Source: Arenicellales bacterium (GTDB lineage: Bacteria > Pseudomonadota > Gammaproteobacteria > Arenicellales > JAJDZL01). Taken from it: a stretch of 64,000 bases of DNA. The first letter of the stretch is position 1. Each line of letters opens with the position of its first letter. Both the position numbers and the translations under genes were made by a program. The DNA is taken from assembly GCA_965200765.1 (NCBI GenBank), contig OZ241380.1, positions 2,022,288-2,086,287 on the forward strand, in the 5' to 3' direction. Under the pieces are notes generated by a model. The model was not told the DNA's origin. It did no database searches and saw nothing but the letters and a program-made list of their open reading frames with translations. This document shows positions 8,038-28,972 of the stretch, in pieces.

Positions 8038-8118
8038 ATGGCGAAAAGAGCCCGTCGCAGAAGAAAAGGGAATCAATGGGAAGTCGTGGGAATTTTGCGG
8101 GAACTAGAATGGGATTGA
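8038..8118 (+). pseudogene. Truncated RelE-like toxin (first 18 codons, then an internal deletion)
   Basis: MAKRARRRRKGNQWEVVG is identical to the 6521 ORF start, then joins sequence homologous to about 6990-7040. Confidence 0.85.
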
Positions 8119-8214
8119 TCTGGCATGCAAGTGACAAAGTACATTAGATTGTGAATTCTTGCACAGGCCGAGTCTGTAACAATTTCGCCTTGAAATTCTT
8201 TCCAACAGGAAATA

Positions 8215-8410
8215 CGCAACAACACATTGGATTGCTAAATTTCAGCAATGATGTATATTGATGCATTCAAACACTAAATCAATATTTGCCAGTACTCGGA
8301 TTCGTCCGGTACTGGCTTTTTTCATGGATAGGTAATCTCTCCCAATACAACTTTGGAACGCGCACCTGTAACGGAAGGAATATTGCCCGGTAGGTTTTGG
8401 ATTCTCCTTT
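8215..8410. repeat. Right copy of diverged direct repeat: dead gmaS 3' end, terminator and live anmK 3' end
   Basis: CGCAACAACACATTGGATTGCTAA repeats the last gmaS codons (RNNTLDC*). Hairpin GCCAGTAC..GTACTGGC-T6 at 8288-8322. Confidence 0.9.
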
Positions 8411-9428
8411 GTGCCAGCCATGCAAATGCACATGCCTCTACCAGGTCCGGCGGAATGCCAAGTTTTGTTGTGTCATGGACCTGAACATTTGAACCTTCGC
8501 GCAGGTGTTGCATAATTGCCTGGTTCTTCGCGCCACCACCACAAACATAGATCTCATCCACTGCAGGAAGTCTTGCACCGATTTCGAACAAAATAGACTT
8601 TGCGGTAAATTTGGCAAGTGTGCTTTGAACTTCTGACTGTTTGAGTACCAGACCCAGTCTATCCAGTTGTTGTAATAGCCAGTCTATACCGAACTCACGT
8701 GTATCAAGACTTTTCGGTATTGGTCGGGAAAAGTACGGCGCACTCATCAAAATATCCAGGAGTTCTTCATTCGGTTCTGACGACAAAGCCCATTGTCCAT
8801 CAGCATCGTACCGTTGGCCCTTGTGCATGAAGGTCCAAGCATCGCATAAAACATTTCCGGGGCCAGTGTCAAACCCGATTGTGTCCTCGGATTCATTCGA
8901 AGGCAAAAAAGTAACGTTTGAAATCCCGCCGATATTGACAATTGCCCGAGCCTTGTTACGACCTCTGAATACTGCTTGGTGAAATGCAGGTGCCAGAGGC
9001 GCACCCTGCCCACCCGCCAGCATGTCTGCTTCACGAAAATTCGATACAACCGGCAACCCGGTTTGATTGGCAACAACGCTGGCATCACCCAATTGCCAAC
9101 TGAACGACGGCCGGGTTTCCGGACTGTGCAATATGGTCTGACCGTGGCAACCGACGGCATTGATTCCGAAGATTTCATTGCCAGTCATCAATTTGCGAAT
9201 GGATTGGGCATAGAGTTGACCCAGCTCGGCTTCCATTTCACGAGCAAGCTCGGATTCCCGGATGGGAGACTTCAGCAACTCTTTGAGCTTGGCCCGAGTA
9301 TTGTCTGAATAGGGGGTGTACTCGCTACCTAGTACCTGCGGCTGGTTGTTCTGATGAAATGAAACAAGGACAGAATCAATGCCATCCATGCTTGACCCGG
9401 ACATCAGGCCGATATAGCAGGACTCCAT
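8322..9428 (-). CDS. anmK: Anhydro-N-acetylmuramic acid kinase
   Basis: IGLMSGSSMDGID, GCHGQT, GGQGAPL, NIGGISN, GFDTGPGN, CGGGAKN. Confidence 0.96.
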   Translation of the reverse strand: MESCYIGLMSGSSMDGIDSVLVSFHQNNQPQVLGSEYTPYSDNTRAKLKELLKSPIRESELAREMEAELGQLYAQSIRKLMTGNEIFGINAVGCHGQTILHSPETRPSFSWQLGDASVVANQTGLPVVSNFREADMLAGGQGAPLAPAFHQAVFRGRNKARAIVNIGGISNVTFLPSNESEDTIGFDTGPGNVLCDAWTFMHKGQRYDADGQWALSSEPNEELLDILMSAPYFSRPIPKSLDTREFGIDWLLQQLDRLGLVLKQSEVQSTLAKFTAKSILFEIGARLPAVDEIYVCGGGAKNQAIMQHLREGSNVQVHDTTKLGIPPDLVEACAFAWLAQRRIQNLPGNIPSVTGARSKVVLGEITYP

Positions 9429-9451
9429 AGAGACGAATGATTCAGTTGCGG

Positions 9452-11119: not shown

Positions 11120-11810
11120 AGTTGAAAATACCCTCGCCTAGCGTTGAATAAATCGTAGTCGAAAATCAATCGTCCAGTCTGTTGTGTTAGCCGTATATAC
11201 TCAATATACAAATTGAAAACCAAAAGAAAGCCAAATTATACTTGAAATCTGCCTGAATTTCCAAACTTTATCCGCTGTCTTTGAGAAAGACGCGTATTGA
11301 AACGCCATTGCCATGATGGTAGTCACCAAGATCATACTTGGTCCAATACGGCAAGGACCACCGTTCAACCAGGCATGAATTTTGCCCTCTTGTTCTCAAC
11401 TCTGCTGAACTTCTCGACGAAGAATCAACCTGGAATTCGTGTTTTGGTATACAAGAAAAATACTATTCACCTCCCCTTCATCGACTGACTTGATGTCATG
11501 AATCTGCAATGCACAGAAAATTGGCAGTGCCCACAAAGTGAAATGCACAGGATTCAGGACAGACTCTGTAACGCGATACCAGATTAGGCGCACCAACCCT
11601 TGTGCGGTTCGCTACCAAGTCAGGACTGCTCGGTCCAACAGTGCTTCTTGGCAAAAACAACACAAAAATTGGCAAATTTACCGTTTACAGGGGAAATTCA
11701 AGTCTTGTACCCTTGATATTGACAGGTTTAGGCATTGCAACCTTAAATTTGTTACTATAATGTTAAACTGATGTATTCATTTTCACTAACGAGAATTTGT
11801 ATTTTCTCTG

Positions 11811-14291
11811 ATGTACAACAATTTCTTTACACAAGCGCTGGGCGAAAGCAAAACACCGTTTGCTTACCAAGTCGCACTCGCCGAAAAAGAATGGCCTGAT
11901 GCGTTGGTTGCACCCACCGGATTTGGTAAAACCGCTGCAGTCATTCTCGGATGGGCATGGAAGAATGCATCCAGGCAGAAAGTCCCCAGACGACTGATTT
12001 ATTGTTTACCAATGCGTACACTTGTTGACCAGACAGAGCAAAACGCAAAAATTTGGATAGAGCAGCTATGTAAAGCAAATAAGAGTTGGAGATCAAACTT
12101 GCCTGACCCCGACAAAGACATACATGTACTTATGGGCGGTTCGACTGATTCAAAATGGTATGAAAGGCCAGAACGTAAAGCAATTCTCATTGGAACCCAA
12201 GACATGCTGTTGAGCCGTGCTTTGATGCGCGGCTACGCGATGAGTCGATATCGATGGCCAGTTGACTTTGCGTTGCTTCACAACGATACACAATGGGTTT
12301 TCGACGAGGTGCAACTGATGGGGTCAGGGCTTGCCACCTCAGCTCAATTGGAGGGATTTCGCAATAAATGGGGAAACTGCCTTCCTTCTGGAAGTTTGTG
12401 GATCTCGGCAACCCTGGAACCAAGTTGGCTTCACACCTTTGATTTCCAGCGAAAACCTGAAGTCTGGCAATGCCCCGAACAGTTTTCCGAAGACAAAAAG
12501 TCAGCTCGAGTTCGTAAGTTACTCAATGCCCCCAAACCATTGGAAAAATCAGAAATTGCACCTGTAAGTGCCAATAAATCTGACTTGCTTGCTTATGTGA
12601 AGGCCATAGCAAATGAAGCAATTTCGCTCCATAGAGCGAATCAGATGACTCTGGTAATAGTCAATACAGTTGAACGGGCACAAGGAGTTTACAACGAATT
12701 GGTGAAGTGCCATAAAGGTGAAGAACATCATTTGGCACTGATTCACTCTCGATTTCGCCCCGCCGATCGTAGATTGCAAATGGAAAAATTGCCACAACCG
12801 GGACAACAGAAAAATCTGATTGTGGTCTCAACGCAGGCTATTGAGGCAGGGATTGACATGTCGGCATCTGTATTGCTGACAGAAGTGGCACCAATATCAT
12901 CTTTGGTGCAACGTTTTGGACGAGTCAATCGCTACGGGGAATTGAATTCAAAAGGTGGTGGGTTGATTCGCTGGATTGATCTTGTAGGTGCCGCCGAGGA
13001 CAATATAGGGAAAGAAAAACTGTCCGCACCTTACACACTTGAAGAAGTTGAGAGAGGCGGGGAATATATTGGGTCCAAAAATGATGCGTGTCCGTCGCAA
13101 CTTCATCAACCATTATCAACCGATCATTCACATCAATCGGTGATTCGCTCCAAAGACATGCTCGACTTATTTGACACCGATCCGGATTTAACCGGCTTCG
13201 ATGTCGATGTCTCCCCGTTCATTCGTGAAAGTATGGACACTGACATTAGAGTGTTCTGGCGCGATCTGGATTCCAAAGACAAACAAGAAAACCCGGAACC
13301 ACTTCCAACCAGAGAGGAGTTGTGTACGATACCGATCGGACGAGCAAAATCTTGGCTGAACAATGTAAAAAGAAAAGACAAGGACTCTGTATTTCAATTG
13401 AATCCAAGAGCAGGGTCAGCAACCGATACATCGCCTTGGACCCGACTAACAGAAGAACCGTGGCCAGGTATGGTCCTGATGATCAAAAGTTCAGTCGGTG
13501 GATATTCCTCTACAACAGGATTTGATCCGCAACAAAATAAATCAGTCGAATCAATTGAAATCAGTGCAAAAATAAATTCAGCAGTTGATGAACTTTACCA
13601 TTCTGATTCGGATTCTAGAAAGTCTGTGTTCGTCAGCCTTGAAGATCATTTGCAACATGTTGCAAATGAGGCAGAACTTCTGTGCGACGAACTCGAAATT
13701 GTTAATGGTTTTCGCAATCAGATCATTCAGGCATCAGCTTGGCATGATCTGGGCAAGGCACACAAAGAATTTCAATCGCGAATGAAATCAACAAACGAAG
13801 CAGAACATCCGCGCCCCGATAAAATTCTTGCCAAAGCACTCGCATACGCTCCCGATAAAAACAGTAGCCAAAAATACTTCAGACACGAACTTGCATCTGC
13901 ACTGGCCTACTTGTCTCACCACAATTGGACTCGAGAGGCAGATCTCATTGCTTATTTGATAGCGGCGCATCACGGCAAAGTACGTATGAACATTCAGTCA
14001 CTGCCGTCTGAACGATCAACCCAGAGTAGAATCGCTCGCGGTGTGATTGAAGGCGATGAACTGCCTGCATTTGATCTGCCATCAGGGGAATCTTGGAAAC
14101 GGGACAAACTTACTCTGACAATCATGGAGTTGGGAGAACATCCTGAAACTGGCGCAAGTTGGACTGAGCGTACTCAAAAACTACTTGGTGACTATGGGCC
14201 CTTTCAACTCGCGTGGCTCGAAGCGTTAGTACGAATATCTGACTGGCGAGCATCAAAAAAGGAAGAGACTGGAGAATATGAAACAAAATAG
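11811..14291 (+). CDS. cas3: Type I-G (I-U) CRISPR helicase-nuclease Cas3 with C-terminal HD domain
   Basis: APTGFGKT, YCLPMRTL, DEVQ, SATL, HSRF, STQAIEAG, QRFGRVNR; C-terminal WHDLGK and AAHHG. Confidence 0.95.
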   Translation: MYNNFFTQALGESKTPFAYQVALAEKEWPDALVAPTGFGKTAAVILGWAWKNASRQKVPRRLIYCLPMRTLVDQTEQNAKIWIEQLCKANKSWRSNLPDPDKDIHVLMGGSTDSKWYERPERKAILIGTQDMLLSRALMRGYAMSRYRWPVDFALLHNDTQWVFDEVQLMGSGLATSAQLEGFRNKWGNCLPSGSLWISATLEPSWLHTFDFQRKPEVWQCPEQFSEDKKSARVRKLLNAPKPLEKSEIAPVSANKSDLLAYVKAIANEAISLHRANQMTLVIVNTVERAQGVYNELVKCHKGEEHHLALIHSRFRPADRRLQMEKLPQPGQQKNLIVVSTQAIEAGIDMSASVLLTEVAPISSLVQRFGRVNRYGELNSKGGGLIRWIDLVGAAEDNIGKEKLSAPYTLEEVERGGEYIGSKNDACPSQLHQPLSTDHSHQSVIRSKDMLDLFDTDPDLTGFDVDVSPFIRESMDTDIRVFWRDLDSKDKQENPEPLPTREELCTIPIGRAKSWLNNVKRKDKDSVFQLNPRAGSATDTSPWTRLTEEPWPGMVLMIKSSVGGYSSTTGFDPQQNKSVESIEISAKINSAVDELYHSDSDSRKSVFVSLEDHLQHVANEAELLCDELEIVNGFRNQIIQASAWHDLGKAHKEFQSRMKSTNEAEHPRPDKILAKALAYAPDKNSSQKYFRHELASALAYLSHHNWTREADLIAYLIAAHHGKVRMNIQSLPSERSTQSRIARGVIEGDELPAFDLPSGESWKRDKLTLTIMELGEHPETGASWTERTQKLLGDYGPFQLAWLEALVRISDWRASKKEETGEYETK

Positions 14292-16560
14292 TATCCGCAC
14301 GGGTTGTTCATCCAAACCCCTCTTAAGCTATTTGAAAGCCTTGGGTATCTTGCGCCTTGTTTCAAATCCAGAAAACAATGTTAACGAGGTTGCGGCTGAT
14401 AGTCACATCCGAGGTTGGTGGGTTAACCAGCAATTTCATATTAATACTAGTCTCAATAGCGAAGAATTAGTTGAATTTTTTCTCTACAACTATTCTCCAA
14501 GTGCGGTAACTACCCCGTGGAACGGAGGGAGTGGTTTCTACAAAAAAGACAATAAAGAAGCAGTCAGTTCACTCCTGGCTCCATCAATTTCCCCTCGCTT
14601 CAGAACTCTGGCAACTGCTATTGAACAGGCAAATGCTGTGGTAAAGCGACTAGGTTTAGAAGAAGCGCCCAAAAATGGAGGCAAACGTGCGCTCATTGCA
14701 GAGCTTCGCAATACTTTTCCTGATTTCGTACTCGAATGGCTAGACGCTTCACTTGTACTTTCAGGAGACACCCTAAAATTTCCTCAAATTCTCGGAACAG
14801 GAGGCAATGATGGGCGATTGGATTTTACGATTAATTTTCATCAAAGACTCTTGTCAAATGAAAATTCAAATAAATTAAAGGGGCTATTTGATGTTACTAC
14901 CGGCTTGCCGACGAGCGAGGCGAATCGTTTGTTGCGAAACAGCCTTTTCGATGACTGCACCCACGGGTTTCACTCTGTTGCAGTCGGCCAATTTGACCCA
15001 GGTGCGGTCGGTGGTCCCAATGCTATTAGTGAAAGTTTTGATGCGGCTCCCAAGGTTAACCCATGGGACTATGTGTTATCTATTGAAGGAGCAATTATGT
15101 TTGCAGGTGCAGCGACTCGTCGTCATCAAGCTTCAAAAATCTCAGGGGCTAGTTTTCCATTTACTGTACGAATGACTGGTGCTGGTAGTGGCAATGTATC
15201 AAGTTCAGATGAAATTAATGCGCGTGCAGAATTTTGGGCACCGCTTTGGAACCAACCATCTAGTTATAGTGAACTTCGAGGATTGCTTAAAGAGGGTCGT
15301 GCCGTTCTGCAGGAAAAAATTGCTAGTGACGGACTGGATTTCGCTCGCGCCGTGGCAAGTCTTGGAATTAATCGTGGAATTGAGAGTTTTCAAAGATATG
15401 GCTTTGTGATGCTATCAGGGAAAGCTTACTTGGCAACTCCGATCGGTGTTCGAAAAGTTTCATCACCTAGTGCAAATTCAGCAAGTTTAATCGACGACCT
15501 TGATACTGGAGATTGGTTAAATCGTGTGAGTAAACTTGCCAAGGGTGAAAACTCTTCATCTCGCGGAGCGGTGTCCTTTCAGCGTTTGGAAAATGCACTT
15601 TTTGCAATGTCTGAAAAAACCAATTTCTCCCCGCAACCTGTGCAACTTGCGCTTGAAGCGTTAGGTGAGTTAGTAGAATGGCTACAGTATAACAAAGAGG
15701 TTGTTGAAAATAAACAGATGCCGCCGCCGCCTCCACGCTTGTCCAGAGCTTGGCAAAGAATTTGTGACGACAACACACCTGAATTTCGAATTGCAAGTGC
15801 ACTCGCAAGCTTGGGCTGGCAAACACCCAAATCCCGGGAAGCGTCCACTGAAGGTGAACTTCCATCAACAAAGCGTTCAATTCCCATGGCTGCACATGTT
15901 GCACCAGTAGAAATAGGGTCAATTTTCAGGAGATATCGTAGTTGGGATACACAATCTCGATGCTTTCTTAACGTATGGCGTGGAAGTGACCTGGAGTCAA
16001 TTTTAATCAGTGTATTAAATCGCAGACTCGTCGAACAGTCTATAGACAAATCTGAAGTGAAACAGCTGTATGGCTTATCCAAAGTACGGTTATCTGATAT
16101 TGAAGCATTTTTCTCACCAACCTTTGATGATGCACGATGTTTACGTTTACTTGCAGGGCTCGTTTGGACTGAACCAGCAAAGATTTTCAATAAACAAAAA
16201 TTGGATTCTCACAGTAAAGTTGTACCATTTTCTTACGCAGTATTGAAATTGCTGTTCTCTCCAACCGATACTATTCAATATTGCAAGCAAGCAAATCTGC
16301 TACCACCAGATTGCGAAATTCCGATACCAGCAAAGATTATCCCTCGTTTAAGGAGTGGATATATTGATGAGACCATTGAAACAGCACTTCAAAGACTTCG
16401 TGCATCTAATGTACCTACACCATTTCACTCATCAAGAGTTAAACATATAGGTGTCACCGGAAGACGCTTGGCAGCTTCGCTACTAATTCCACTGAATAAC
16501 TTTGAGTCAAAAATATTGCTTCAAAGGGTTTGTGATGTGGAAGAGATACAGAATATTTAG
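14278..16560 (+). CDS. csx17: Type I-G large subunit Cas8g (Csx17)
   Basis: LLSYLKALG, TPWNGGSGFY, LGTGGNDGRLDF, NPWDYVLSIEGA; directly after cas3. Confidence 0.9.
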   Translation: MKQNSIRTGCSSKPLLSYLKALGILRLVSNPENNVNEVAADSHIRGWWVNQQFHINTSLNSEELVEFFLYNYSPSAVTTPWNGGSGFYKKDNKEAVSSLLAPSISPRFRTLATAIEQANAVVKRLGLEEAPKNGGKRALIAELRNTFPDFVLEWLDASLVLSGDTLKFPQILGTGGNDGRLDFTINFHQRLLSNENSNKLKGLFDVTTGLPTSEANRLLRNSLFDDCTHGFHSVAVGQFDPGAVGGPNAISESFDAAPKVNPWDYVLSIEGAIMFAGAATRRHQASKISGASFPFTVRMTGAGSGNVSSSDEINARAEFWAPLWNQPSSYSELRGLLKEGRAVLQEKIASDGLDFARAVASLGINRGIESFQRYGFVMLSGKAYLATPIGVRKVSSPSANSASLIDDLDTGDWLNRVSKLAKGENSSSRGAVSFQRLENALFAMSEKTNFSPQPVQLALEALGELVEWLQYNKEVVENKQMPPPPPRLSRAWQRICDDNTPEFRIASALASLGWQTPKSREASTEGELPSTKRSIPMAAHVAPVEIGSIFRRYRSWDTQSRCFLNVWRGSDLESILISVLNRRLVEQSIDKSEVKQLYGLSKVRLSDIEAFFSPTFDDARCLRLLAGLVWTEPAKIFNKQKLDSHSKVVPFSYAVLKLLFSPTDTIQYCKQANLLPPDCEIPIPAKIIPRLRSGYIDETIETALQRLRASNVPTPFHSSRVKHIGVTGRRLAASLLIPLNNFESKILLQRVCDVEEIQNI

Positions 16561-16589: not shown

Positions 16590-17564
<975 letters not shown>

Positions 17565-17572: not shown

Positions 17573-19228
17573 ATGTTTGCTCTGATTTTTAACTTTCACA
17601 CCAGACATTATCACGCAACAAACTGGGGGCAGCATGTCAATGAAGCACTCGTTGCTTGGCCCCCTGAACCATGGAGAATTTTGCGAGCACTCATATCAAG
17701 TTATTGGTGCAAGGGAGGATGTCAGGACTGGTCGGTCGAACAACTTGCTGATTTCGTTGATACTCTTGCAGAGAAGCCACCTCTTTTTTCTTTGCCTAGT
17801 GATCCGATTCATACATCTACACAGCATTACATGCCAGTGGACAAAAATAGAAAATCGCTTATTTTTGATGCCTTTGCTTGTCTTCCCAAAGATGCCCAAA
17901 TTGTTGTTGCGTGGCCTGATGTAAATCTTGATAGTGACACACTAGCTTTGGCAAGTAACCTGGCAACGGGAATTGGCTATCTGGGAAGAGCTGAGAGTTG
18001 GGCGACTTGCGAAGTCTCCTGCGAGTGGGATTTGAAAAATGCCAATTGCACACCAATTGAAAATACAACTCACATAGAAGATGATGAAAATATTGTAAGT
18101 GTAATTGCTCCGAGGTCGCCAAGCAGTTATGACCTTGAAAGAAAAAAATTGATTGAAAATCTCGATTCACAATTAGTACAAGAGTATGAGATGAGTGGGA
18201 AAAAGGCACCGTCAGCTACTGTATTGAATAACAAACGAAAATCTTATTTTGGAGAAACATTACCAAAACGAATAGTCCATGCACTTTCTGTTGACACATC
18301 TTCATACAAAAAGTATGGATGGAGTTATCCCCCAGCTGCACGAAAGGTTTTATACAATCGGCCAGCTTTGTCATCAGTTCCACGAAAAAGTAATATCCCT
18401 ACTTACGACATTTCGGGAAACAAGCATAACTATTCAGTGGCCAGATTTGCACTTGTAGGGCGACCACAACCAAGAATTGAGGATGCAATCAAGATTGGAG
18501 AACTGATGAGATTAGCTACTCTTTCGAAATTTGGATGGCATGAAGACTCGCAAACGAAAAAGCGATCTCCAAAAGCACCGTCTGAGATCTCAGGACGAGG
18601 CGCTGATGGTAAACCACTACAAAATGCAAGCCATACTCATGCTTTCTGGCTTTCGGAAGATTCGGATGATGACGGTTGTATTGATCATATCTCTGTGTAT
18701 GTAGCATCTGGTCTTAGTCCACTGATTCGGATGAAATTGAACCAACTAACAAGATTATGGCTACACAAGGGGGATATTGGTAGTTCGAAGGAAGAGATTG
18801 AGGATAGTGGACACCAAGAATGGCGACTAGCACTTGAAGGATTTGGAGAACCAAAAGACTTTGAAGATATATCCAATATATTTGGCTATGATCGATTCTG
18901 GATAAGTACGACACCATTCTTGGCCACAGGGCATCTGAAAAGAAATTCTGGGTATGAAAAAGAAGTTCGTCGACATCTGAAACTCCGTTCTATTGTTCCA
19001 AATAATCAAGCAGATGAAGTATCCGTAGAGATTCTGAAGTCTATTAATGTCCACGGCACTCAGCGTAATTCATTGCATTTTCATCGCTTTAGGTCCAGAG
19101 GACGAGAAAAACAGCTTGATACTCATGGTGCGTTATTACGATTAGAGTTTCCCGTACCGATACGAGGGCCATTAGCAATCGGGTATGGTTGTCACTTCGG
19201 GCTTGGACTTTTCGTACCTGACAAGTAA
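17573..19228 (+). CDS. csb2: Type I-G Cas5/Cas6 fusion (Csb2)
   Basis: WPPEPWRILRALI, YLGRAESW; C-terminal Cas6 glycine loop GPLAIGYGCHFGLGLF. Confidence 0.92.
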   Translation: MFALIFNFHTRHYHATNWGQHVNEALVAWPPEPWRILRALISSYWCKGGCQDWSVEQLADFVDTLAEKPPLFSLPSDPIHTSTQHYMPVDKNRKSLIFDAFACLPKDAQIVVAWPDVNLDSDTLALASNLATGIGYLGRAESWATCEVSCEWDLKNANCTPIENTTHIEDDENIVSVIAPRSPSSYDLERKKLIENLDSQLVQEYEMSGKKAPSATVLNNKRKSYFGETLPKRIVHALSVDTSSYKKYGWSYPPAARKVLYNRPALSSVPRKSNIPTYDISGNKHNYSVARFALVGRPQPRIEDAIKIGELMRLATLSKFGWHEDSQTKKRSPKAPSEISGRGADGKPLQNASHTHAFWLSEDSDDDGCIDHISVYVASGLSPLIRMKLNQLTRLWLHKGDIGSSKEEIEDSGHQEWRLALEGFGEPKDFEDISNIFGYDRFWISTTPFLATGHLKRNSGYEKEVRRHLKLRSIVPNNQADEVSVEILKSINVHGTQRNSLHFHRFRSRGREKQLDTHGALLRLEFPVPIRGPLAIGYGCHFGLGLFVPDK

Positions 19229-19519: not shown

Positions 19520-21973
19520 ATGAAAAATTTCACGAAACGGTGCTTGATTGCCCATGCAATTGCTTTGCTACTGCTTACGATCAGTGCTTGCGGGGGTGGC
19601 GGAGGCACCACTGTCAATCCGCCCACTACCCCGACGAATCCGCCCACTACACCGACGAATCCGCCCACTACACCAACGGATCCGCCCACTACACCAACGG
19701 ATCCGCCCACTACACCAACGGATCCGCCCACTACACCAACGGATCCGCCCACTACACCAACGGATCCACCCACTGCTCCAACAGCAATCGATATCAGACT
19801 ACGACTACAGAATCAGCCTGAGTTGGAGAAGGTAAATGCCCGTGAGGCATATGAACGGAGATTGAATGGTCAAGGGGTTAGGATTGGCATCCAGGATGAC
19901 TTTGTTGACTTCAAAAATGCCGAGTTTTCTGGAAGAATCAGTTTTGAACAGGCAAGTTTAACCTACTGGATTCCTCCGAGAACTGTGCGGCCTTCGCCCG
20001 GTGCACGAATTATTGTTGTACCAACAGTAAATGATGTTGTATCCAGAGCGCGCCAATTCATCGAAGAAGAAGGTTATCCAAGACTAAACAACTCGGTGTT
20101 CATTAGAGTTGCCAGCGAAGCTTCGTACTATGAAATCCCAGCATTCGGCCAACGAAATATGAACAATGTGATGTTGCGCACGCATGGTACACAAGTTGCA
20201 TCAGTAGCTGCTGGCCGGACGTTGGGGGTAGCACCAGGAGCAACAATTGTGCCACTTGCAACGCCATTGGATTCCGACCTTGAAAACCAACGAGTGCTAG
20301 CAGAAGATTGGCGTGGGACTATTGAAGTGATCAAAAATCCCCCTGTTGACTTCAGCCAAAGTGATATTGCTGGATTTGACCAGCGGGTAGCGGGTCAGCT
20401 CAATGAATTTTATCGCGGCTTCCATGTAATCAACCGGTCTTATGGTCCAACCCTCGGCCCAGAGGCGAGCATAAAAGTAATTTATGACCGACAAGCAAGT
20501 GAGCGAGTCTATGAAGAATGGTTACGGACGAACCTACCCCAATACTACCGGGCATTTACGCAACAATCACTGCCAGACCGAGAAAAAACTGTGATTGTGT
20601 ATGCTGCTGGCAATGATGGACTTCCAGTACCGCATGTTGTCGCCAGCCGTGCACACAGAATCCCCAGTTTGCGCGGACTTCGACTCGCTGTGGTAGGCAT
20701 CGGGTCAAATGGCGTAATTCACTCCAGGTCAAACCGTTGCGGTACTTTACCAGATGATTGGCAAAGCACACGCGATGGTCGTCACTATTGTCTTGCCGCC
20801 CCGTACAGTGTTAATACAACCCACCCTCAAACAGGGGCACGGACTACTGTAGAAGGCACATCATTCTCAGCACCTATGGTGAGCGGCGGCATTGCATTGG
20901 TTCTCCAACAATTCCGTAACCAGTTAACTCCACGCCAAGCAGCATTGCGGGTAGTCAATACTGCAGACAATACTGGAAGATATCGCGACACCAGTATATA
21001 TGGCGCCGGTTTGCTCAACCTTGCGGCGGCAACAAGCCCAATTGGCGAACTCCGCACAGGTACTAAGACAGTACAATCATCTCTTGCTGGCACAACTCTA
21101 CGAACACCCGCGGCTTGGGGAAATGTCGCAAATCGTATGAACGGAATAGAAATTACAGCCTTCGATGACTATAACGCTCCATTTTGGTTTGAACCGAAAC
21201 ATCTCATCAAATTTTCACGAATTTCCGGGCACTCCATTGTTCCGGAAACATATCACACTACCAGTTGGAAATCCGGACCGCTGAATTATCTCAATTGGAC
21301 AAGATTGGACAACACAACACTGCTTGAGTCGAATGAGATGCAATTCGCGACCGGATTCGAAAATTATGATAATGATTCACGCACTGGTATGTTGAATACT
21401 ATGGGTATTTCGATGAAGCCATTCGGAAACAGTATTCGTACTGGTTTTATTACCGAGAACAACAGCAATCATGGTGCCAAGCCTTTCGGAGCATTTGGAA
21501 AAAATGTCAAATCCAACATGGTTTGGATTGAAGGCAGTAAAAATTGGAGATTAAAAAAGAACTCTCGCTGGTCTTTAAGTGCTTCAGGTCTCATCGCACT
21601 GGGCCAACCTCGCTACGAAGCAGGATCAATGTTTGAAGCAAGTGAGTCTATTTATTCTGCCGCAAACTTAGCTTTGGAAAACAAATCTCGCAAGCACCGC
21701 AACCAATTTACAATCAGTCAATCCCTGAGAGCAGAATCTGGGCAAGGAATACTTCGCTATCCTACGGGTCGTACGCCAGAAGGTACGCGACTATACTCAG
21801 AAGGCAGATTTCCGTTGGAACCGGAAGCAAGAGAGATCAAACTTGGTTATAGACATGACAGAACATTAGGGAATGGAATGCTTGCCTTTGAAATTTCGCA
21901 TATCCAAAATGCAGGACATACTCGAGACAATGAAGACACAGCAGTAGGTGTTGCTTTTCGGCTTGTTTGGTGA
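19520..21973 (+). CDS. Secreted S8 (subtilisin-like) serine protease with lipoprotein-type signal, Pro/Thr linker and probable C-terminal beta domain
   Basis: Lipobox ISA-C; catalytic motifs IQDD (D), THGTQVA (H), AAGNDG (N), GTSFSAPMVSG (S); terminal VAFRLVW. Confidence 0.9.
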   Translation: MKNFTKRCLIAHAIALLLLTISACGGGGGTTVNPPTTPTNPPTTPTNPPTTPTDPPTTPTDPPTTPTDPPTTPTDPPTTPTDPPTAPTAIDIRLRLQNQPELEKVNAREAYERRLNGQGVRIGIQDDFVDFKNAEFSGRISFEQASLTYWIPPRTVRPSPGARIIVVPTVNDVVSRARQFIEEEGYPRLNNSVFIRVASEASYYEIPAFGQRNMNNVMLRTHGTQVASVAAGRTLGVAPGATIVPLATPLDSDLENQRVLAEDWRGTIEVIKNPPVDFSQSDIAGFDQRVAGQLNEFYRGFHVINRSYGPTLGPEASIKVIYDRQASERVYEEWLRTNLPQYYRAFTQQSLPDREKTVIVYAAGNDGLPVPHVVASRAHRIPSLRGLRLAVVGIGSNGVIHSRSNRCGTLPDDWQSTRDGRHYCLAAPYSVNTTHPQTGARTTVEGTSFSAPMVSGGIALVLQQFRNQLTPRQAALRVVNTADNTGRYRDTSIYGAGLLNLAAATSPIGELRTGTKTVQSSLAGTTLRTPAAWGNVANRMNGIEITAFDDYNAPFWFEPKHLIKFSRISGHSIVPETYHTTSWKSGPLNYLNWTRLDNTTLLESNEMQFATGFENYDNDSRTGMLNTMGISMKPFGNSIRTGFITENNSNHGAKPFGAFGKNVKSNMVWIEGSKNWRLKKNSRWSLSASGLIALGQPRYEAGSMFEASESIYSAANLALENKSRKHRNQFTISQSLRAESGQGILRYPTGRTPEGTRLYSEGRFPLEPEAREIKLGYRHDRTLGNGMLAFEISHIQNAGHTRDNEDTAVGVAFRLVW
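19616..19783 (+). repeat. In-frame 21-bp VNTR, 8 units, encoding (N/D)PPTTPT
   Basis: RATCCGCCCACTACACCRACG units at 19616, 19637, ... 19763. Confidence 0.97.
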
Positions 21974-22048: not shown

Positions 22049-24248
22049 GGTTCAATGAGGCCGCCGCTGATTAGCGGCGGAAATCCAGCTCGGCAATTGA
22101 CGGACCCGAAACAATCGACTCACTTCAATGAGGCCGCCGCTAATTAGCAGCGGAAATCCCCAGTTTTGCTATCTACTGGCGAGCGAATACCGCTGCTTCA
22201 ATGAGGCCGCCGCTAATTAGCAGCGGAAATTTTTTAGCATCTGCAATTCTTGCCACCGGGCTTTTAAGCTTCAATGAGGCCGCCGCTAATTAGCAGCGGA
22301 AATCCCGCATGGAATCGCGCGGGGGGCGCAACGGCGGCGCTTCAATGAGGCCGCCGCTAATTAGCAGCGGAAATGACTACGTGCAGGTCAGTCGGACCGG
22401 CGACGGCTACGCTTCAATGAGGCCGCCGCTAATTAGCAGCGGAAATATTAATCGCAAGAATGTTGCGGCACTGCGCATAAGAACAGCTTCAATGAGGCCG
22501 CCGCTAATTAGCAGCGGAAATGACGCGGCCAATGACGACGGCAATCTCGTATTCAGCGTGCTTCAATGAGGCCGCCGCTAATTAGCAGCGGAAATTTGCT
22601 TGTATGGCTTTCTGCAGTTAATTTAATTGCATCGCTTCAATGAGGCCGCCGCTAATTAGCAGCGGAAATCCTTATGCTGACTGAATACAAGGCTACCGTT
22701 TTCGAGGCTTCAATGAGGCCGCCGCTAATTAGCAGCGGAAATCCTTTGTGGGTAGAAGATGATTGGGCGGATGATTTAGCTTCAATGAGGCCGCCGCTAA
22801 TTAGCAGCGGAAATCTTTTTTCTTGAACCAGTCCCAATAAGTAACAACAGTTAGCTTCAATGAGGCCGCCGCTAATTAGCAGCGGAAATTTCTGCTATAC
22901 TGGATTCTGTCGGTGGCGGCCTCATTGCTTCAATGAGGCCGCCGCTAATTAGCAGCGGAAATTTCTGCTATACTGGATTCTGTCGGTGGCGGCCTCATTG
23001 CTTCAATGAGGCCGCCGCTAATTAGCAGCGGAAATGTAGCGTTGTCCAGTTCAGTCAATTGTCATCCTCCGCGCTTCAATGAGGCCGCCGCTAATTAGCA
23101 GCGGAAATTTTGATTGCCCCTGATTTGCCGATAGCACTGCGTCTTGCTTCAATGAGGCCGCCGCTAATTAGCAGCGGAAATCAAGCCGTCGTTTTCGTCG
23201 ATGCTCATCGCGGCTTTGCTTCAATGAGGCCGCCGCTAATTAGCAGCGGAAATCTGGCGGCTCTGGCGGAGGCGGTGGACTTAGTGCATCGGCTTCAATG
23301 AGGCCGCCGCTAATTAGCAGCGGAAATTTTTTCTACCTTCCGAGTAAATCGCCTAAATATTTCTTGCTTCAATGAGGCCGCCGCTAATTAATGTCGTCAG
23401 CAGCGGAAATGTCGTCATGCTTGCCTTCCCTTTCGCCGCTGGCCCGGCTTCAATGAGGCCGCCGCTAATTAGCAGCGGAAATGTCGCTGGCCCGGCTTCA
23501 ATGAGGCCGCCGCTAATTCGCAGCGGAAATTCAATCGACTTCGGCTGGCTATCGCTTCAATGAGGCCGCCGCTAATTAGCAGCGGAAATATGTTTTCAGA
23601 AGGTTTGGATGCCATTGTATTTTTTAGCTTCAATGAGGCCGCCGCTAATTAGCAGCGGAAATTATGATCGTTTCGTGCAAGATAACCATGGATACAATGC
23701 TTCAATGAGGCCGCCGCTAATTAGCAGCGGAAATCCAAGCTGCTGCTTGAAACCAATCCTCACATGTTGCAGCTTCAATGAGGCCGCCGCTAATTAGCAG
23801 CGGAAATTCGGCGTATCCTCGCGCGGCGTAGGTTCGGTGACCGAGCAGCTTCAATGAGGCCGCCGCTAATTAGCAGCGGAAATCTGGCATATTCAGATGT
23901 AGGAAGAGATAGAACTCTAGCTTCAATGAGGCCGCCGCTAATTAGCAGCGGAAATTTCCATTGCAATCGATAGCCAAGCGTTTGAAACCTATGCTTCAAT
24001 GAGGCCGCCGCTAATTAGCAGCGGAAATCTGACTGACCTAATGCAGCACTACCTATTTCAAGTTGCTTCAATGAGGCCGCCGCTAATTAGCAGCGGAAAT
24101 AGAATTATGATCAACGCTCAAGAACCGAAAAAAATTGCGCTTCAATGAGGCCGCCGCTAATTAGCAGCGGAAATTCGTTGCAAATGATGAAACGGAAAAA
24201 ATAACAGTCAGCGCTTCAATGAGGCCGCCGCTAATTAGCAGCGGAAAT
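22049..24248 (-). CRISPR. CRISPR array, 31 repeats and 30 spacers; 36-bp repeat ATTTCCGCTGCTAATTAGCGGCGGCCTCATTGAAGC in the transcribed orientation
   Basis: Counted manually. Spacers are 35-40 nt except one of 12 and one of 23. The degenerate repeat at 22049 marks the trailer; the ATTGAAGC 3' end and the leader next to cas2 indicate minus-strand transcription. Confidence 0.98.
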
Positions 24249-24463
24249 AGTCCATATCACAAACCATTGAAACAAAAACGCTTTTTCAAAGACTTGCGAG
24301 ACGTCATCAGATTTACCCGATCAATGACCATCAAACCAAACAACTATACACAATTGTTACTCTTAAATACTTGTTTTCAAAGAACAAACCAAGTTTCGAG
24401 CACTTTCAGGCAATAGAATCACTACCAAAGCACTCGCATTTCTTTCGGCAAGCGTCAAATCCA
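24249..24463 (-). promoter_or_regulatory. CRISPR leader
   Basis: AT-rich non-coding stretch between the cas2 stop and the first perfect repeat. Confidence 0.75.
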
Positions 24464-24757
24464 TCAGACAATAACCGCTTCCCTAGTCGGCTTATTATAC
24501 TCCTTTCCGATGCTTTCAACAAATAATTCCACCTTATCCGCTAACCCCAAATCGAAAATCAATACATGATCCTCCTTTGGATCAATCAACTCTGTGAGAC
24601 GACCGACCATCTGTGCATGTCGACGAGCCGTCAATCGGCATTGAAATACCGACAATTGCACCCATTCGCCATAGCCTTTCACTGAGTTGAAAACCTTCCG
24701 CCAACGCTTCGGGTCGGAAATATCGTATGCAACAATGTACAGTCGTTCTTTAGCCAT
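24464..24757 (-). CDS. cas2: CRISPR-associated endoribonuclease Cas2
   Basis: YIVAYDISDPKRWRKV, WVQLSVFQC. Confidence 0.97.
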   Translation of the reverse strand: MAKERLYIVAYDISDPKRWRKVFNSVKGYGEWVQLSVFQCRLTARRHAQMVGRLTELIDPKEDHVLIFDLGLADKVELFVESIGKEYNKPTREAVIV

Positions 24758-24764: not shown

Positions 24765-26489
24765 TCAACGTGGTAGATAATGAGGATACACTGGAATTTC
24801 GTTCTGCAAGTATCGTGCCAACAATCGAACTTGCACTTCAATGAGCCGGCGCATTGAAACTCGATATCCGAACACCGGGTGCGTAGTCTCTTGTTCAAGA
24901 CGTCGCTCAAAAATTCCAATAAATGATTTTCTGCCACCAGGCTGTAATGAACACGCCGGTCCGTTGAATATAAAGTCTTTGACTTTGATCTCACCGTTGT
25001 TGATCGCTTGAATTACACAAGAATCTGCAACGATTGGACGAAACGGTTCCATCAGATCAAGAGCAAGTGCAGGACGTCCATGCCTCGTACGGTGATAGAG
25101 GCCCATACAAGGGTCCAATCCTGTCACTGAAATTGATACTGAAAATAGTCTGGTGAGCATAGAGTATGCAAGGGATAGCATTGCATTCACAGGGTCAGTC
25201 GGAGGTCTGCGATTACGAGTTTGAAACGAGAAGTTGGCAACTCTGTCGTCTTCGCTGGCTACTAGCAAATTCGGAAAACTGGCGAAGTAAACTGCCGCCG
25301 CCTCTCCTTCTATGCCAAGCAGTATTTGCTCTGAATTTGCCTGCTTTGCTTTTTTCGCCAACGATTTCAAACGAACCAAAGCATCCCTTTTGGTTTTCGA
25401 ATCAACATCACCGCGCCAATTTCGACGTAGCATGGTTCGTGAATTTTGCACCTTCGCTGACACAAGTTCTCTCGAAAATGACAATCTGCGTTTCTCATCG
25501 AATGCAACTTTGAATTGTGCTTCGCGTACAGCAATATTTCCGTTTGCTACTCCTGCTGAATGGCCCAAGTACCAACCACCGGTCGTGAACCAGGCCAAAG
25601 GTATTTCTTGCCTCATGAGTGCGTGTATTGTCGGAGTAGTTATTGAAACCGGTCCAAACAGAGCAACCTGAGAAACCGACAAAATAGGAACCTCTACCTT
25701 GTCGTCTTCGGACTCTACAACCAAGCGTTCACCATCCTTGCGTACTCTGGAACCCGGAGTTTGAACATAGAGAGGCAATGCTGGATCGTCGGAAGGATTC
25801 AAGGGTCGCGGTGGATAGTCTTTGAGAAACATATTCGTTTCGTCCGGCAAACAAATTCCTGCAAGGGAGCATTTGGGACACTTGGGACTATTTTCAAGTG
25901 GTGGGGGACGTTGATTTGACATCGCCATCGCCCGCAAACTTGAAATGGCTGTCAATGTATTGGTACGCAATTCTTCATCCAGCTTGACGGTAACTTTTTC
26001 ACGAGATGCAATATACCAAAGTGCTCCGCTTTCTACCGTAAATCCATTGTCTTCCAGGATCATTGCTTGCGTACACACTTGAACTCTTTCTGGTTCATAT
26101 GCTCCCATGGCTACATGAGGGCGCTTCCCCTTTTTGTAGTCCACAGGCATAACCACCCCTTTCTTGATTTCGATGACATCCATTTTGGCAATAACCCCCA
26201 GCTTTTCTGACGACAGAGTTACAGCCCGAGCCTTGGACATAACATTTTCCAGTTCTTCAGACGAAGGCAACTTGCCTTTACCCCGATCTACTTGAGAATG
26301 AGCAATAGAGCCTTTGACAGTATCGACACTGTCGGCCCACTCTCCTTCAACCCACTCCAGATAGGCCAATCGAGGACAATAAACCCACTCATTTACGATT
26401 CTCGCAGGAATTAAGGGTGAATCTGCTTCAATAGGCGGAGGGGGTAGTGGAAGCGATCGTTGGTGTTTGGGGTTGGCAGAATTATCCAT
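24765..26489 (-). CDS. cas4/cas1: Cas4-Cas1 fusion
   Basis: Cas4: YCPR, VDYKKG, CPKCSLAGIC. Cas1: LGIEGEAAAVYF, DPVNAMLSLAY, LALDLMEPFRP. Confidence 0.95.
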   Translation of the reverse strand: MDNSANPKHQRSLPLPPPPIEADSPLIPARIVNEWVYCPRLAYLEWVEGEWADSVDTVKGSIAHSQVDRGKGKLPSSEELENVMSKARAVTLSSEKLGVIAKMDVIEIKKGVVMPVDYKKGKRPHVAMGAYEPERVQVCTQAMILEDNGFTVESGALWYIASREKVTVKLDEELRTNTLTAISSLRAMAMSNQRPPPLENSPKCPKCSLAGICLPDETNMFLKDYPPRPLNPSDDPALPLYVQTPGSRVRKDGERLVVESEDDKVEVPILSVSQVALFGPVSITTPTIHALMRQEIPLAWFTTGGWYLGHSAGVANGNIAVREAQFKVAFDEKRRLSFSRELVSAKVQNSRTMLRRNWRGDVDSKTKRDALVRLKSLAKKAKQANSEQILLGIEGEAAAVYFASFPNLLVASEDDRVANFSFQTRNRRPPTDPVNAMLSLAYSMLTRLFSVSISVTGLDPCMGLYHRTRHGRPALALDLMEPFRPIVADSCVIQAINNGEIKVKDFIFNGPACSLQPGGRKSFIGIFERRLEQETTHPVFGYRVSMRRLIEVQVRLLARYLQNEIPVYPHYLPR

Positions 26490-27724: not shown

Positions 27725-28972
27725 TTGAAACCCGACACCTCAAGGAATTTGAAATTGTCAAATCATTTGGAAGAATCACTCGACCTCATTCGACGTGGCA
27801 CCGACGAGATACTGGTCGAGTCGGAACTCGTTGAACGTTTGAATACCGGCAAAGCTTTGCGTATCAAGGCCGGTTTCGATCCAACCGCGCCTGATCTGCA
27901 TCTGGGCCATATTGTCCTGCTCGAAAAAATGCGCCAGTTTCAGGAAATTGGACATGTAGTGATTTTTTTGATCGGCGATTTTACCGGACGGATTGGCGAC
28001 CCGTCAGGCCGCAGTTCCATCCGTCCGCCCATGACAGACGAAGACATTGAAAACAATGCAACTACCTACAAAGAACAGGTTTTCAAGGTACTGGACGAAG
28101 AAAAAACCGAAATTCGATTCAATTCCGAATGGTTTGGGAAACAGTCAGCTGTGGACATGATCCGGTTGGCCGCACGTCATACTGTAGCCAGAATGCTCGA
28201 GCGGGACGACTTCAAAAAGCGCTACACCAACCAGCAACCGATTGCGATCCACGAATTTCTGTACCCCCTTGTACAGGGATATGATTCCGTGGCACTACAA
28301 TGCGATGTGGAACTCGGCGGCACCGATCAAAAATTCAATCTGCTTGTCGGCCGGGAGTTGCAAAAAGAGTATGGACAATTGCCGCAGATCATTATTACAA
28401 TGCCCTTGCTCGAAGGTTTGGATGGCGTGCAAAAAATGTCGAAGTCACTCAATAACTATATCGGTATCAACGAATCTCCGAAGGAGATTTTCGGAAAAGT
28501 CATGTCTTTGTCAGACGAGTTGATGTGGCGATATTTTGATTTGCTGAGTACGCGGCCAATTGCCCAGCTTCACCAATTGAAAGAACGGGTTCAAGCTGGA
28601 GAAAATCCGCGCGATATCAAATTTCTGCTCGCAAGTGAACTGGTGGAACGGTTCCATTCAAAAAATGATGCCGAAGAAGCTCAGTCCGGATTTATTGCGC
28701 AATTTCAACAAGGCGAAATTCCGGATGATCTGGAAAAGAAGGAAATTCATGCTTCCGGCGAGGGCATGGCACTTGCCAATGTACTGAAAGAATCAGGCTT
28801 GACTGCAAGCACCTCCGAATCCTATCGCATGGCCAAGCAAGGCGCAGTCAGGATTGATGGTGAACGCGTCAGCGATGCTTCAGTAAAACTTCCTGTTGGC
28901 GCATCGCATGTAATTCGCGTGGGCAAACGAAGGATTGCAGAAATTCAAATTGTTCAGCAAGTAGAATCATAG
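27725..28972 (+). CDS. tyrS: Tyrosine--tRNA ligase
   Basis: [23 protein letters not shown]-terminal S4 domain. Confidence 0.97.

What the first reader, a model, noticed from the sequence alone, without database searches (positions are those of the whole stretch)
22890..22999. Spacer whose 12-nt seed matches the array's own repeat next to a TTC PAM: candidate self-directed regulatory guide
Seen: on the transcribed (minus) strand this spacer reads AATGAGGCCGCC-ACCGACAGAATCCAGTATAGCAGAA. The first 12 nt equal repeat positions 6-17 on the plus strand (GCTTC-AATGAGGCCGCC-GCT). The three bases 5' of that match are TTC in all 31 repeats. Established: characterised type I-G systems (Geobacter, Thioalkalivibrio) use a 5'-TTN PAM. 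Short-complementarity guides (CreA/CreR in type I-B, scaRNA in type II) repress transcription without cleavage. Inference: the spacer was taken from a same-family repeat, such as another array, a phage mini-array or a solitary-repeat RNA anti-CRISPR. Cascade loaded with it would find PAM plus a 12-bp seed at every repeat, which could autoregulate the array or prime adaptation.
Basis: partly seen in the sequence, partly recalled or inferred. Interest (0 to 1): 0.85.

Follow-up and report, generated by a model that had tools for sequence, protein, structure and literature searches.

The report
Spacer captured from a CRISPR-repeat mimic
One duplicated spacer in an active type I-G CRISPR array starts with 12 bases copied from the repeat family itself, most likely because it was taken from a foreign, probably viral, CRISPR-RNA mimic rather than because it regulates its own array.

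Summary
The spacer at 22890-22926, exactly duplicated at 22963-22999, begins on the transcribed minus strand with AATGAGGCCGCC. That equals plus-strand repeat positions 6-17, and TTC precedes it in all 31 repeats. The locus is a complete type I-G system.

This is not chance. The longest exact repeat match in 289 other spacers carrying this repeat is 8 nt.

It recurs. Six more I-G arrays of the same repeat family hold spacers that start right after the repeat's TTC. In four of them the rest of the spacer is a recognisable variant repeat that is absent from the host genome.

The non-repeat tail of our spacer is about 73% identical to the 5' region of an intergenic crRNA-like gene on a viral contig. 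That gene reads TATACT, an 18-nt linker, the handle, a 37-nt guide, then a partial repeat with a hairpin.

Best reading: an ordinary TTC-selected immune spacer against a foreign repeat mimic. The 12-nt self-match is a by-product.

The autoregulation idea has no support. Ten close relatives lack the spacer, it has no promoter target, and it is predicted to trap its own 5' handle in a 13-bp hairpin.

The parts
22049..24248 (-). Type I-G CRISPR array: 31 repeats of 36 nt and 30 spacers. The trailer is at the low-coordinate end.
   Evidence: The terminal repeats at 22049 and 22122 are degenerate. Relatives show the same polarity.
22890..22926 (-). Spacer of interest, copy A. The crRNA sense is AATGAGGCCGCC-ACCGACAGAATCCAGTATAGCAGAA.
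   Evidence: It has a 12-nt exact match to repeat positions 6-17.
22963..22999 (-). Spacer of interest, copy B. It is an exact duplicate; the whole 73-nt repeat-spacer unit is duplicated.
   Evidence: (family D2, 100% identity).
22915..22943 (.). Junction palindrome 1. The arms are 22915-22927 and 22931-22943 (13 bp) and the loop is CTT. On the RNA it pairs the 3' arm of the Csb2 hairpin, the CCTC linker and the 5' handle with the first 12 nt of the spacer.
   Evidence: sequence. In one search the alternative hairpin pairs have probability 0.96-1.0 and the canonical stem 0-0.08.
22988..23016 (.). Junction palindrome 2: the same structure at the duplicated unit.
24249..24463 (-). Leader, with a promoter-like site at 24380-24353 on the minus strand.
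   Evidence: The leader start is identical in other strains (loose ends, where every array begins 215 nt after cas2).
24464..24757 (-). cas2
   Evidence: TIGR01573, PF09827.
24765..26489 (-). cas4g/cas1g fusion. This is the adaptation enzyme that selects the TTC (5'-GAA-3' on the overhang) PAM.
   Evidence: NF049935, 752.7 bits against a cut-off of 560. PAM handling is described in PMC10504553.
11811..14291 (+). cas3g
   Evidence: TIGR02621, 758.8 bits.
14278..16560 (+). cas8g/csx17
   Evidence: TIGR04113, 603.7 bits.
16590..17564 (+). cas7g/csb1
17573..19228 (+). csb2 (Cas5-Cas6 fusion, the pre-crRNA nuclease)
   Evidence: TIGR02165. Function is described in PMC9638904.

Best explanation
The spacer is an ordinary adaptive-immunity spacer. 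Cas4g/Cas1g-Cas2 took it from foreign DNA that carried a CRISPR-repeat-like unit of the same I-G repeat family.

Mechanism. The antisense strand of every repeat of this family reads GC-TTC-AATGAGGCC.... The 8-nt crRNA handle ATTGAAGC therefore contains the complement (GAA) of the I-G PAM. Any foreign copy of the handle region is a ready-made protospacer that starts at AATGAGG.

Likely source. It was probably a promoter-driven crRNA-like gene (mini-array, Cracr or SRU type) on a phage or plasmid. Its first pseudo-repeat keeps only the handle-proximal ~17 nt and is preceded by a TATACT -10 box. That explains 12 nt of repeat followed by a non-repeat tail.

Consequences. The 12-nt identity to the host's own repeats is a passive result of the shared handle region. 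It is tolerated because 12 nt plus a PAM is too little for Cas3 recruitment (inferred). On the pre-crRNA it creates a 13-bp hairpin that probably lowers maturation of this crRNA. The repeat-spacer unit was later duplicated by array recombination or slippage.

Shown: the anatomy, the recurrence, the foreign origin of the variant repeats, and the existence of viral family units.
Inferred: the exact source, tolerance, and impaired processing.
For: (1) The locus is a complete type I-G system with the published repeat geometry.

(2) The I-G PAM is TTN, and specifically 5'-GAA-3' on the overhang strand. The PAM end is integrated at the spacer side, so it lies next to the upstream repeat's handle, as seen here.

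(3) Scans for the junction palindrome found six further cases in five arrays. They are L079, L080 (twice), L081, L082 and L083. G036, G037 and G038 carry Cas4g/Cas1g directly upstream of these arrays.

(4) In four of the six, the remainder of the spacer is a variant repeat. One example is AATGAGGCCGCAGCA-ACGGG-CTGCGGAAAAC against the host's ...-TATCA-....

(5) A register-agnostic survey found one more case in the same register (L080 #57). It found no antisense cases in other registers.

(6) The two variant repeats searched for (the sources of L080 #25 and L079 #77) occur in their host genomes only as the spacer itself.

(7) IMG/VR viral contigs carry mini-arrays and solitary units of this family, with divergent hairpins but the same handle. 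These are L049, L050, L037/L040/L062 and L077.

(8) L110 lies in a viral-contig intergenic region. It reads TATACT, an 18-nt linker, GGCCTCATTGAAGC, a 37-nt guide, then TTTTCC and a 7-bp-stem hairpin.

(9) Our spacer is 27/37 identical to L110's antisense strand. The linker, which was not part of the search pattern, aligns with p of about 0.005. The L083 spacer has the same TATAC motif at nearly the same distance.

(10) The host lineage's array is active: only the oldest spacer is shared among relatives.
Against: The exact protospacer was not found in any of these:
- IMG/VR
- JGI metagenome contigs
- phage and plasmid collections
- the host's own genome or its relatives' genomes
- Logan runs

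The source and its PAM are therefore inferred, not seen.

A single IMG/VR hit to the 20-base TATACT...handle pattern is about what chance predicts (roughly one). The L110 link rests on features outside the pattern.

The junction-palindrome scans were fixed to one register, so the cases they found are ascertainment-biased towards that register.

The tails of L082 and L083 are not clearly repeat-like and have only 10-nt arms.

No RNA data exist for this strain.
Confidence: 0.72

Rival explanations
1. Self-directed regulatory or priming guide. Cascade loaded with this crRNA binds TTC plus the 12-bp seed in all 31 repeats. It thereby represses array transcription or primes adaptation.
For: PAM plus a 12-nt contiguous seed is present at all 31 repeats and nowhere else in the genome. 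crRNA-like RNAs with partial complementarity are known to repress without cleavage: CreA, CreR and scaRNA. The unit is present in two copies.
Against: - The spacer is absent from ten arrays of strains with identical Cas2, and none of their 261 spacers is similar. Known regulatory guides are conserved, stand-alone and have degenerate repeats.
- The sites lie inside the transcribed body of the array, not at a promoter.
- The predicted 13-bp hairpin sequesters the handle and the upstream Csb2 hairpin.
- The same kind of spacer in other arrays is simply a copy of a foreign repeat.
- There are no self-derived spacers that would suggest priming on the chromosome, although such spacers would be counter-selected anyway.
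Confidence: 0.07
2. Local replication or repair artefact. An intrastrand template switch (quasi-palindrome conversion or snap-back synthesis) copied the start of the adjacent repeat in inverted form onto the end of an unrelated spacer.
For: The structure is a perfect 13-bp palindrome with a 3-nt loop exactly at the junction. The same array shows other templated or slippage lesions: an 8-nt templated insertion in repeat 19, a 12-nt deletion-derivative spacer, and unit duplications. The tail is not itself repeat-like.
Against: - The spacer length is a normal 37 nt.
- In four other arrays the inverted part continues into a variant repeat that differs from the adjacent one, which local copying cannot produce.
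- In L081, L082 and L083 the match stops exactly at the end of the family-conserved module (10 nt). That is expected for foreign family members but not for local copying.
- The tail resembles a viral crRNA-like gene.
Confidence: 0.06
3. Pure coincidence. An ordinary protospacer, for example a coding sequence for F-N-E-A-A-T, happens to begin with the 12-mer after a TTC PAM.
For: The 16-mer CTTCAATGAGGCCGCC occurs in 48 IMG/VR loci, about the chance expectation, and many look like coding sequence (TTC AAT GAG GCC GCC reads as FNEAA). Across a scan of very many arrays, rare coincidences will be picked up.
Against: - The chance is 6e-8 per spacer.
- The empirical maximum in 289 other spacers is 8 nt.
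- The unbiased rate of true repeat-derived spacers in the family is about 1e-3, orders of magnitude above chance.
- The tail is similar to L110.
Confidence: 0.03
4. The source was a rearranged or truncated repeat in a chromosomal or plasmid CRISPR array of another strain, not a dedicated MGE crRNA-like gene.
For: Four of the other cases look like full variant repeats, which could come from any foreign array. Truncated and rearranged repeats exist even in this array.
Against: The TATACT-linker-handle architecture is shared with L110 and with the L083 spacer. This points to a specific element type rather than a random truncation.
Confidence: 0.12

Closest known systems
Canonical type I-G (formerly I-U) adaptation and interference (Geobacter sulfurreducens, Methanosarcina barkeri, Thioalkalivibrio sulfidiphilus)
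   Same: The gene set matches: cas3g, cas8g, cas7g, csb2, cas4/1 and cas2. The repeat is 36 nt with a 7-bp stem, then 4 nt, then an 8-nt handle. The PAM is TTN (GAA on the overhang), and the PAM end is integrated next to the upstream repeat.
   Different: The protospacer lay inside a repeat-like sequence, so the seed of the crRNA is identical to part of the host's own repeat.
MGE-borne CRISPR mimics: viral mini-arrays (Medvedeva 2019, PMC6858448), solitary repeat units/Racrs (Camara-Wilpert 2023, PMC10651486), and viral crlRNAs/Cracrs (bioRxiv 10.1101/2024.10.29.618823)
   Same: The inferred source, and the viral units L110, L049, L050, L040 and L077, are repeat-like units on viral contigs. 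They lie outside cas loci. Some have a degenerate first pseudo-repeat and a promoter-like box just upstream.
   Different: The published Cracr survey lists V-A, I-F, I-E, I-C and I-B, not I-G. The window holds not the mimic but a host spacer directed against one. I did not find host spacers against mimics described in the papers read.
CreA/CreR crRNA-like regulators (type I-B CreTA; Shmakov 2023; PMC9458426)
   Same: A guide has only partial (about 12 nt, PAM-proximal) complementarity to host DNA next to a valid PAM.
   Different: Those regulators are stand-alone, have degenerate repeats, are conserved with the locus and target a promoter. This spacer has perfect repeats, sits mid-array, is strain-specific and matches only the array's repeats.
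Self-targeting spacers
   Same: There is sequence identity between a spacer and the host chromosome next to a PAM.
   Different: Only 12 of 37 nt match, so this is partial targeting repeated 31 times. It arises from shared repeat ancestry, not from acquisition of host DNA.

Membership tests
Type I-G CRISPR-Cas locus | Signature genes cas3g, cas8g/csx17, cas7g/csb1, csb2 and the cas4/cas1 fusion, plus cas2 | tested here: met
   All score above the NCBIfam cut-offs, for example NF049935 at 752.7 against 560 and TIGR04113 at 603.7 against 150.
Type I-G CRISPR-Cas locus | 36-nt repeat with a hairpin. Csb2 cuts 4 nt 3' of a 7-bp stem and leaves an 8-nt 5' handle. | tested here: met
   The repeat read on the minus strand is ATTT-CCGCTGC-TAATTA-GCGGCGG-CCTC-ATTGAAGC. 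The geometry matches PMC9638904. Cleavage itself was not assayed.
Ordinary immune spacer | Flanked by intact repeats inside a leader-polarised array, with length in the array's range | tested here: met
   The spacer is 37 nt and the lineage range is 35-40. Both flanking repeats are perfect.
Ordinary immune spacer | A matching protospacer in foreign DNA flanked by the system's PAM | tested here: inconclusive
   No exact protospacer was found. The closest match is a 27/37 homologue on viral contig L110, preceded by TTC.
crRNA-like regulatory RNA (CreA/CreR/crlRNA) | Stand-alone unit outside the main array, with degenerate pseudo-repeats | tested here: not met
   It sits mid-array between two perfect repeats. 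The window holds no stand-alone degenerate repeat, apart from a weak cas1-internal match.
crRNA-like regulatory RNA (CreA/CreR/crlRNA) | PAM-proximal partial match to the promoter of a cas or toxin gene | tested here: not met
   Sites with TTN plus a seed of 9 nt or more exist only in the 31 repeats, and nowhere else in the genome.
crRNA-like regulatory RNA (CreA/CreR/crlRNA) | Conserved together with the cas locus among related strains | tested here: not met
   It is absent from ten loci with identical Cas2, covering 261 other spacers.
MGE-borne crRNA mimic (as the SOURCE of the spacer) | Repeat-like unit with a conserved handle, located on a virus or plasmid outside a cas locus | tested here: inconclusive
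   This is met for the homologue L110 and for L049, L050, L040 and L077 on IMG/VR contigs. The actual source molecule was not found.
MGE-borne crRNA mimic (as the SOURCE of the spacer) | Expressed as a small RNA that loads into, or inhibits, host Cas proteins | not testable with these tools
   Only a -10-like TATACT (TGC-TATACT in our spacer's source) lies 20-22 nt upstream of the handle.

The most novel reading that the evidence does not exclude
Hosts with type I-G systems may recurrently immunise themselves against MGE-borne crRNA mimics (mini-arrays, Racr- or Cracr-like genes) at the one site the mimic cannot change. The PAM complement (GAA) and the first seed bases lie inside the 8-nt handle that the mimic needs in order to load into Cascade. 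Escape mutations would therefore destroy the mimic.

The cost is a crRNA whose seed matches every host repeat and which hairpins with its own handle. That such spacers are tolerated sets a natural upper bound on what I-G Cascade treats as non-target: 12-15 contiguous PAM-proximal bases, and up to 25/31 with a 5-nt central block mismatched.

A further, less likely extension is that these spacers have a secondary effect on array transcription or processing.
Probability: 0.2. Interest if true: 0.75.

Novelty: new member of a known kind. Interest (0 to 1): 0.45.

Why it matters
The spacer itself is ordinary immune memory, so the proposed self-regulatory guide should be downgraded. Following it up gave three useful results.

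1. Repeat-derived spacers form a recurrent class in this I-G repeat family, at roughly 0.1-1% of spacers. All antisense cases start at the TTC embedded in the handle. This is in-genome evidence for the TTC PAM and for traffic of foreign CRISPR-like DNA.

2. Viral contigs carry mini-arrays, solitary units and a promoter-driven single-guide crRNA-like gene of the I-G family. The latest viral crlRNA survey does not list this subtype.

3. Hosts appear to target these mimics. This gives a testable anti-anti-CRISPR idea, and natural data on how much PAM-proximal self-complementarity I-G Cascade tolerates.

Tried and rejected
Searches for the exact protospacer all failed:
- the whole spacer against the phage and plasmid collections (only chance-level hits)
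- two tail segments against IMG/VR
- a 22-mer against JGI metagenome contigs
- the host's own genome, allowing up to 6-8 mismatches
- Logan runs, which hold only the repeat and leader of other strains, with no RNA data

The direct PAM determination failed. About 215 of the lineage's 279 pooled spacers (the first 7,990 of 10,354 nt) found nothing in the phage collection. A shorter set (4,074 nt) found nothing in 36 family genomes. No spacer of the window's own array matched the genome.

The same repeat was not found in the 36 genomes of the taxonomic family.

Variant source repeats of three other cases were not found in IMG/VR.

The TATACT...handle pattern was not found in 401 genomes of the class.

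I tested whether the spacer came from the host's own array and then mutated. I rejected this: beyond 12 nt, identity to the repeat is 5/19, which is random.

I tested whether a second array in the genome could be the source. I rejected this: the only other array is a type II-C-like array with an unrelated repeat.

I checked whether viral guides (L110, L040, L049, L050) have PAM+seed sites in the host I-G locus. Only chance-level 9-mers turned up elsewhere.

Flanks of L081 and L083 held housekeeping genes, not cas genes. The subtype of the L079, L080 and L081 arrays was instead confirmed by a genome search. The subtype of the L082 and L083 arrays (metagenome contigs) was not confirmed.
Full report
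**What is there.** The window holds a complete type I-G CRISPR-Cas locus.
- On the plus strand: cas3g (11811-14291), cas8g/csx17 (14278-16560), cas7g (16590-17564) and csb2 (17573-19228).
- On the minus strand: cas4g/cas1g (24765-26489) and cas2 (24464-24757).
- All score above curated cut-offs (Pfam).
- Between the two gene groups lie an S8 subtilase gene and a 31-repeat array at 22049-24248.

**Orientation.** The array is transcribed on the minus strand. Several lines agree.
- The two repeats at the low-coordinate end are degenerate.
- A 215-nt leader separates the array from cas2. Ten related loci have the same leader and degenerate last repeats ending GATCC or GAACC.
- The only promoter-like site lies on the minus strand in the leader.
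- Read on the minus strand, the repeat is ATTT-CCGCTGC-TAATTA-GCGGCGG-CCTC-ATTGAAGC. This is the 7-bp stem, 4 nt and 8-nt handle reported for Csb2 processing in T. sulfidiphilus (PMC9638904).

- The spacer at 22890-22926, repeated exactly at 22963-22999, reads AATGAGGCCGCC-ACCGACAGAATCCAGTATAGCAGAA in crRNA sense.
- The first 12 nt equal plus-strand repeat positions 6-17.
- TTCAATGAGGCCGCC is exact in all 31 repeats and occurs nowhere else in the 3.29-Mb genome.
- Together with the last base of the repeat, it forms a perfect 13-bp inverted repeat with a 3-nt loop across the junction.
- It is not chance. The figure is 4^-12 per spacer. The other spacers of the array match the repeat by at most 7 nt. 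The 261 unique spacers from ten strains with identical Cas2 and the same repeat match by at most 8 nt, never at the spacer start.

**PAM logic.**
- I-G systems use TTN (Almendros 2019, cited in PMC9638904).
- Biochemically, Cas4 recognises 5'-GAA-3' on the 3' overhang. The PAM end is joined at the spacer side, which places it next to the handle of the upstream repeat in the final array (PMC10504553).
- The strand whose 3' end was joined to the plus-strand repeat start here ends ...GGCGGCCTCATT. In the source it would have continued GAA if the source was a family repeat (...CATT|GAAGC).

**Recurrence.** I scanned one genome per species, and then the JGI metagenome contigs, for the junction palindrome GGCCTCATTNCTTCAATGAGGCC.
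- This found six further cases in five arrays: L079 and L080 (twice), both Vicinamibacterales MAGs; L081, an alphaproteobacterial MAG; and L082 and L083, metagenome contigs.
- The three genomes carry Cas4g/Cas1g directly upstream of these arrays.
- In four cases the rest of the spacer is clearly a variant repeat. L080 #25 is AATGAGGCCGCAGCA-ACGGG-CTGCGGAAAAC, while the host repeat has TATCA in the loop. L079 #77 is 25/31 identical to its host repeat, with the differences clustered in the loop.
- The two variant repeats searched for (the sources of L080 #25 and L079 #77) are not present elsewhere in their genomes.
- A register-agnostic alignment of about 1,000 spacers found one more case in the same register (L080 #57). 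It found no antisense case in another register.
- L079 also has two spacers that resemble a repeat in sense orientation.
- Spacers copied from foreign family repeats, starting right after the handle's TTC, are therefore a real class at roughly 0.1-1% of spacers.
- Caveat: the palindrome scans were fixed to that register. Only the additional case and the absence of other registers are unbiased.

**Where our tail comes from.** The 25-nt tail is not repeat-like. It has no second stem arm and no GGAAAT end.
- IMG/VR contigs carry units of this family: a three-repeat mini-array with divergent hairpins plus a solo unit (L049); a repeat-guide-degenerate-repeat unit on three contigs (L037, L040, L062); a two-repeat unit (L050); and a solo unit (L077).
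- In sense orientation our source reads TGC-TATACT-N16-GGCCTCATT(GAAGC). The L083 spacer's source reads TATACT-N14-GGCCTCATT.
- The last viral scan, TATACTN{12,18}GGCCTCATTGAAGC, returned one locus, L110, on a 47.5-kb viral contig.
- One hit is about what chance predicts for 20 fixed bases, so the hit alone proves nothing. Its other features do.
- L110 lies in a 140-nt intergenic gap, antisense to its neighbours. One neighbour matches a phage protein family.
- After the handle come exactly 37 nt, then TTTTCC plus a 7-bp-stem hairpin, which is the 5' part of a family repeat. It is therefore a promoter-psiR1(handle only)-guide-psiR2 crRNA-like gene.
- Our spacer is 27/37 identical to L110's antisense strand. 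The linker, which was not in the search pattern, aligns with shuffle p of about 0.005.
- A strongly degenerate first pseudo-repeat is typical of crRNA-like genes (PMC9458426).
- Viral crlRNAs are known for V-A, I-F, I-E, I-C and I-B, but are not listed for I-G.

**Why the regulatory reading is weak.**
- Relatives with identical Cas2 share only the oldest spacer with this array. The array therefore turns over fast, and this spacer is a recent, strain-specific acquisition, followed by about 17 newer ones.
- It is flanked by perfect repeats, unlike CreA/CreR-type guides.
- Its only PAM+seed sites are the repeats themselves, not a promoter.
- RNA folding predicts that the junction hairpin wins outright over the Csb2 hairpin of the upstream repeat. 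R+S folds at -30.7 kcal/mol, against -13.3 for the repeat alone. The alternative pairs have probability 0.96-1.0 and the canonical stem 0-0.08.
- That hairpin buries the cleavage site and the handle. Co-transcriptional binding of Csb2 could still rescue some processing.
- No RNA data exist for the strain.
- Binding of Cascade to a 12-bp seed was not testable here.

**Verdict.** Origin from a same-family repeat-like element is supported, most likely an MGE-borne crRNA mimic. Autoregulation or priming is unsupported. The spacer is a normal member of a known kind. Its interest lies in the class it reveals and in the idea that hosts hit crRNA mimics at their indispensable handle.

Noticed in passing
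L110:3873-4013 (IMGVR_UViG_3300015206_000003): An intergenic single-guide crRNA-like gene of the I-G repeat family on a viral contig. It reads TATACT, an 18-nt linker, GGCCTCATTGAAGC, a 37-nt guide (AACGAAATGATTGCAGCGCGCGGTGGCACAGGCTCAC), then TTTTCC and a 7-bp hairpin. Its target is unknown. I-G is not among the subtypes listed for viral crlRNAs.
   Followed up: partly
L049:688-1450; L040:3460-3570 (also L037, L062); L050:1627-1735; L077:5273-5308: Viral contigs carry mini-arrays and solitary units of the same family. The handle (TTCAATGAGGCC on the antisense strand) is conserved but every repeat has a different hairpin. L049 has three divergent repeats spaced 71 and 74 nt apart, plus a solo unit.
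   Followed up: partly
window 23366-23553: Other array lesions. Repeat 19 carries an 8-nt insertion (ATGTCGTC) templated from the repeat/spacer border 12 nt downstream. The next unit holds a 12-nt spacer that is an internal-deletion derivative of the preceding 36-nt spacer. The following spacer is only 23 nt, and repeat 21 has one substitution.
   Followed up: partly
window 19520-21973 (+): An 817-aa S8 subtilase gene sits between csb2 and the trailer end of the array. Eight of the ten related loci, those long enough to reach it, hold a subtilase gene at the same place (793-831 aa where complete). It may be an accessory gene of this I-G locus.
   Followed up: no
window 24824-24850 (inside cas4g/cas1g, minus strand): A repeat-like stretch lies near the 3' end of cas1. 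Its minus strand reads GTTTCAATGCGCCGGCTCATTGAAGT, with CTCATTGAAG identical to the repeat. It may be chance: about 0.1 such matches are expected per window.
   Followed up: no
own genome C1:2974384-2977758 (outside the window): The genome holds a second CRISPR locus. It has about 31 units of a 36-nt repeat (GTTGTCATAGCACCGCTTTTCCCCAAGTGTTATAAT) with 30-nt spacers, next to a cas1-like gene. It looks like type II-C and is unrelated to the I-G repeat.
   Followed up: partly
L079 spacers #86 and #91; G036 array (L106/L107): L079 has spacers that resemble a family repeat in SENSE orientation. #91 (CTTCCGCGGCCCCTGGCCGCGGCCTCATTGAACCC) looks like a foreign terminal repeat. G036 carries about 320 repeats in one array, including three repeat-derived spacers and a broken repeat that lacks CTCATT.
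   Followed up: partly
G037:C1:1-13400 (L108): Array segments of the same repeat alternate in orientation at the start of this MAG chromosome: 63-435 minus, 557-1661 plus, 1725-13391 minus. This is either an inversion inside an array or an assembly artefact.
   Followed up: no
L084, L086, L087, L090 between tyrS and the periplasmic-binding-protein gene: Several relatives carry an HTH_3/Peptidase_M78 (ImmA/IrrE-like) gene with an Inhibitor_I42 domain next to the I-G adaptation genes. In this window tyrS (27725-28972) directly follows. This is a variable islet beside the cas locus.
   Followed up: no
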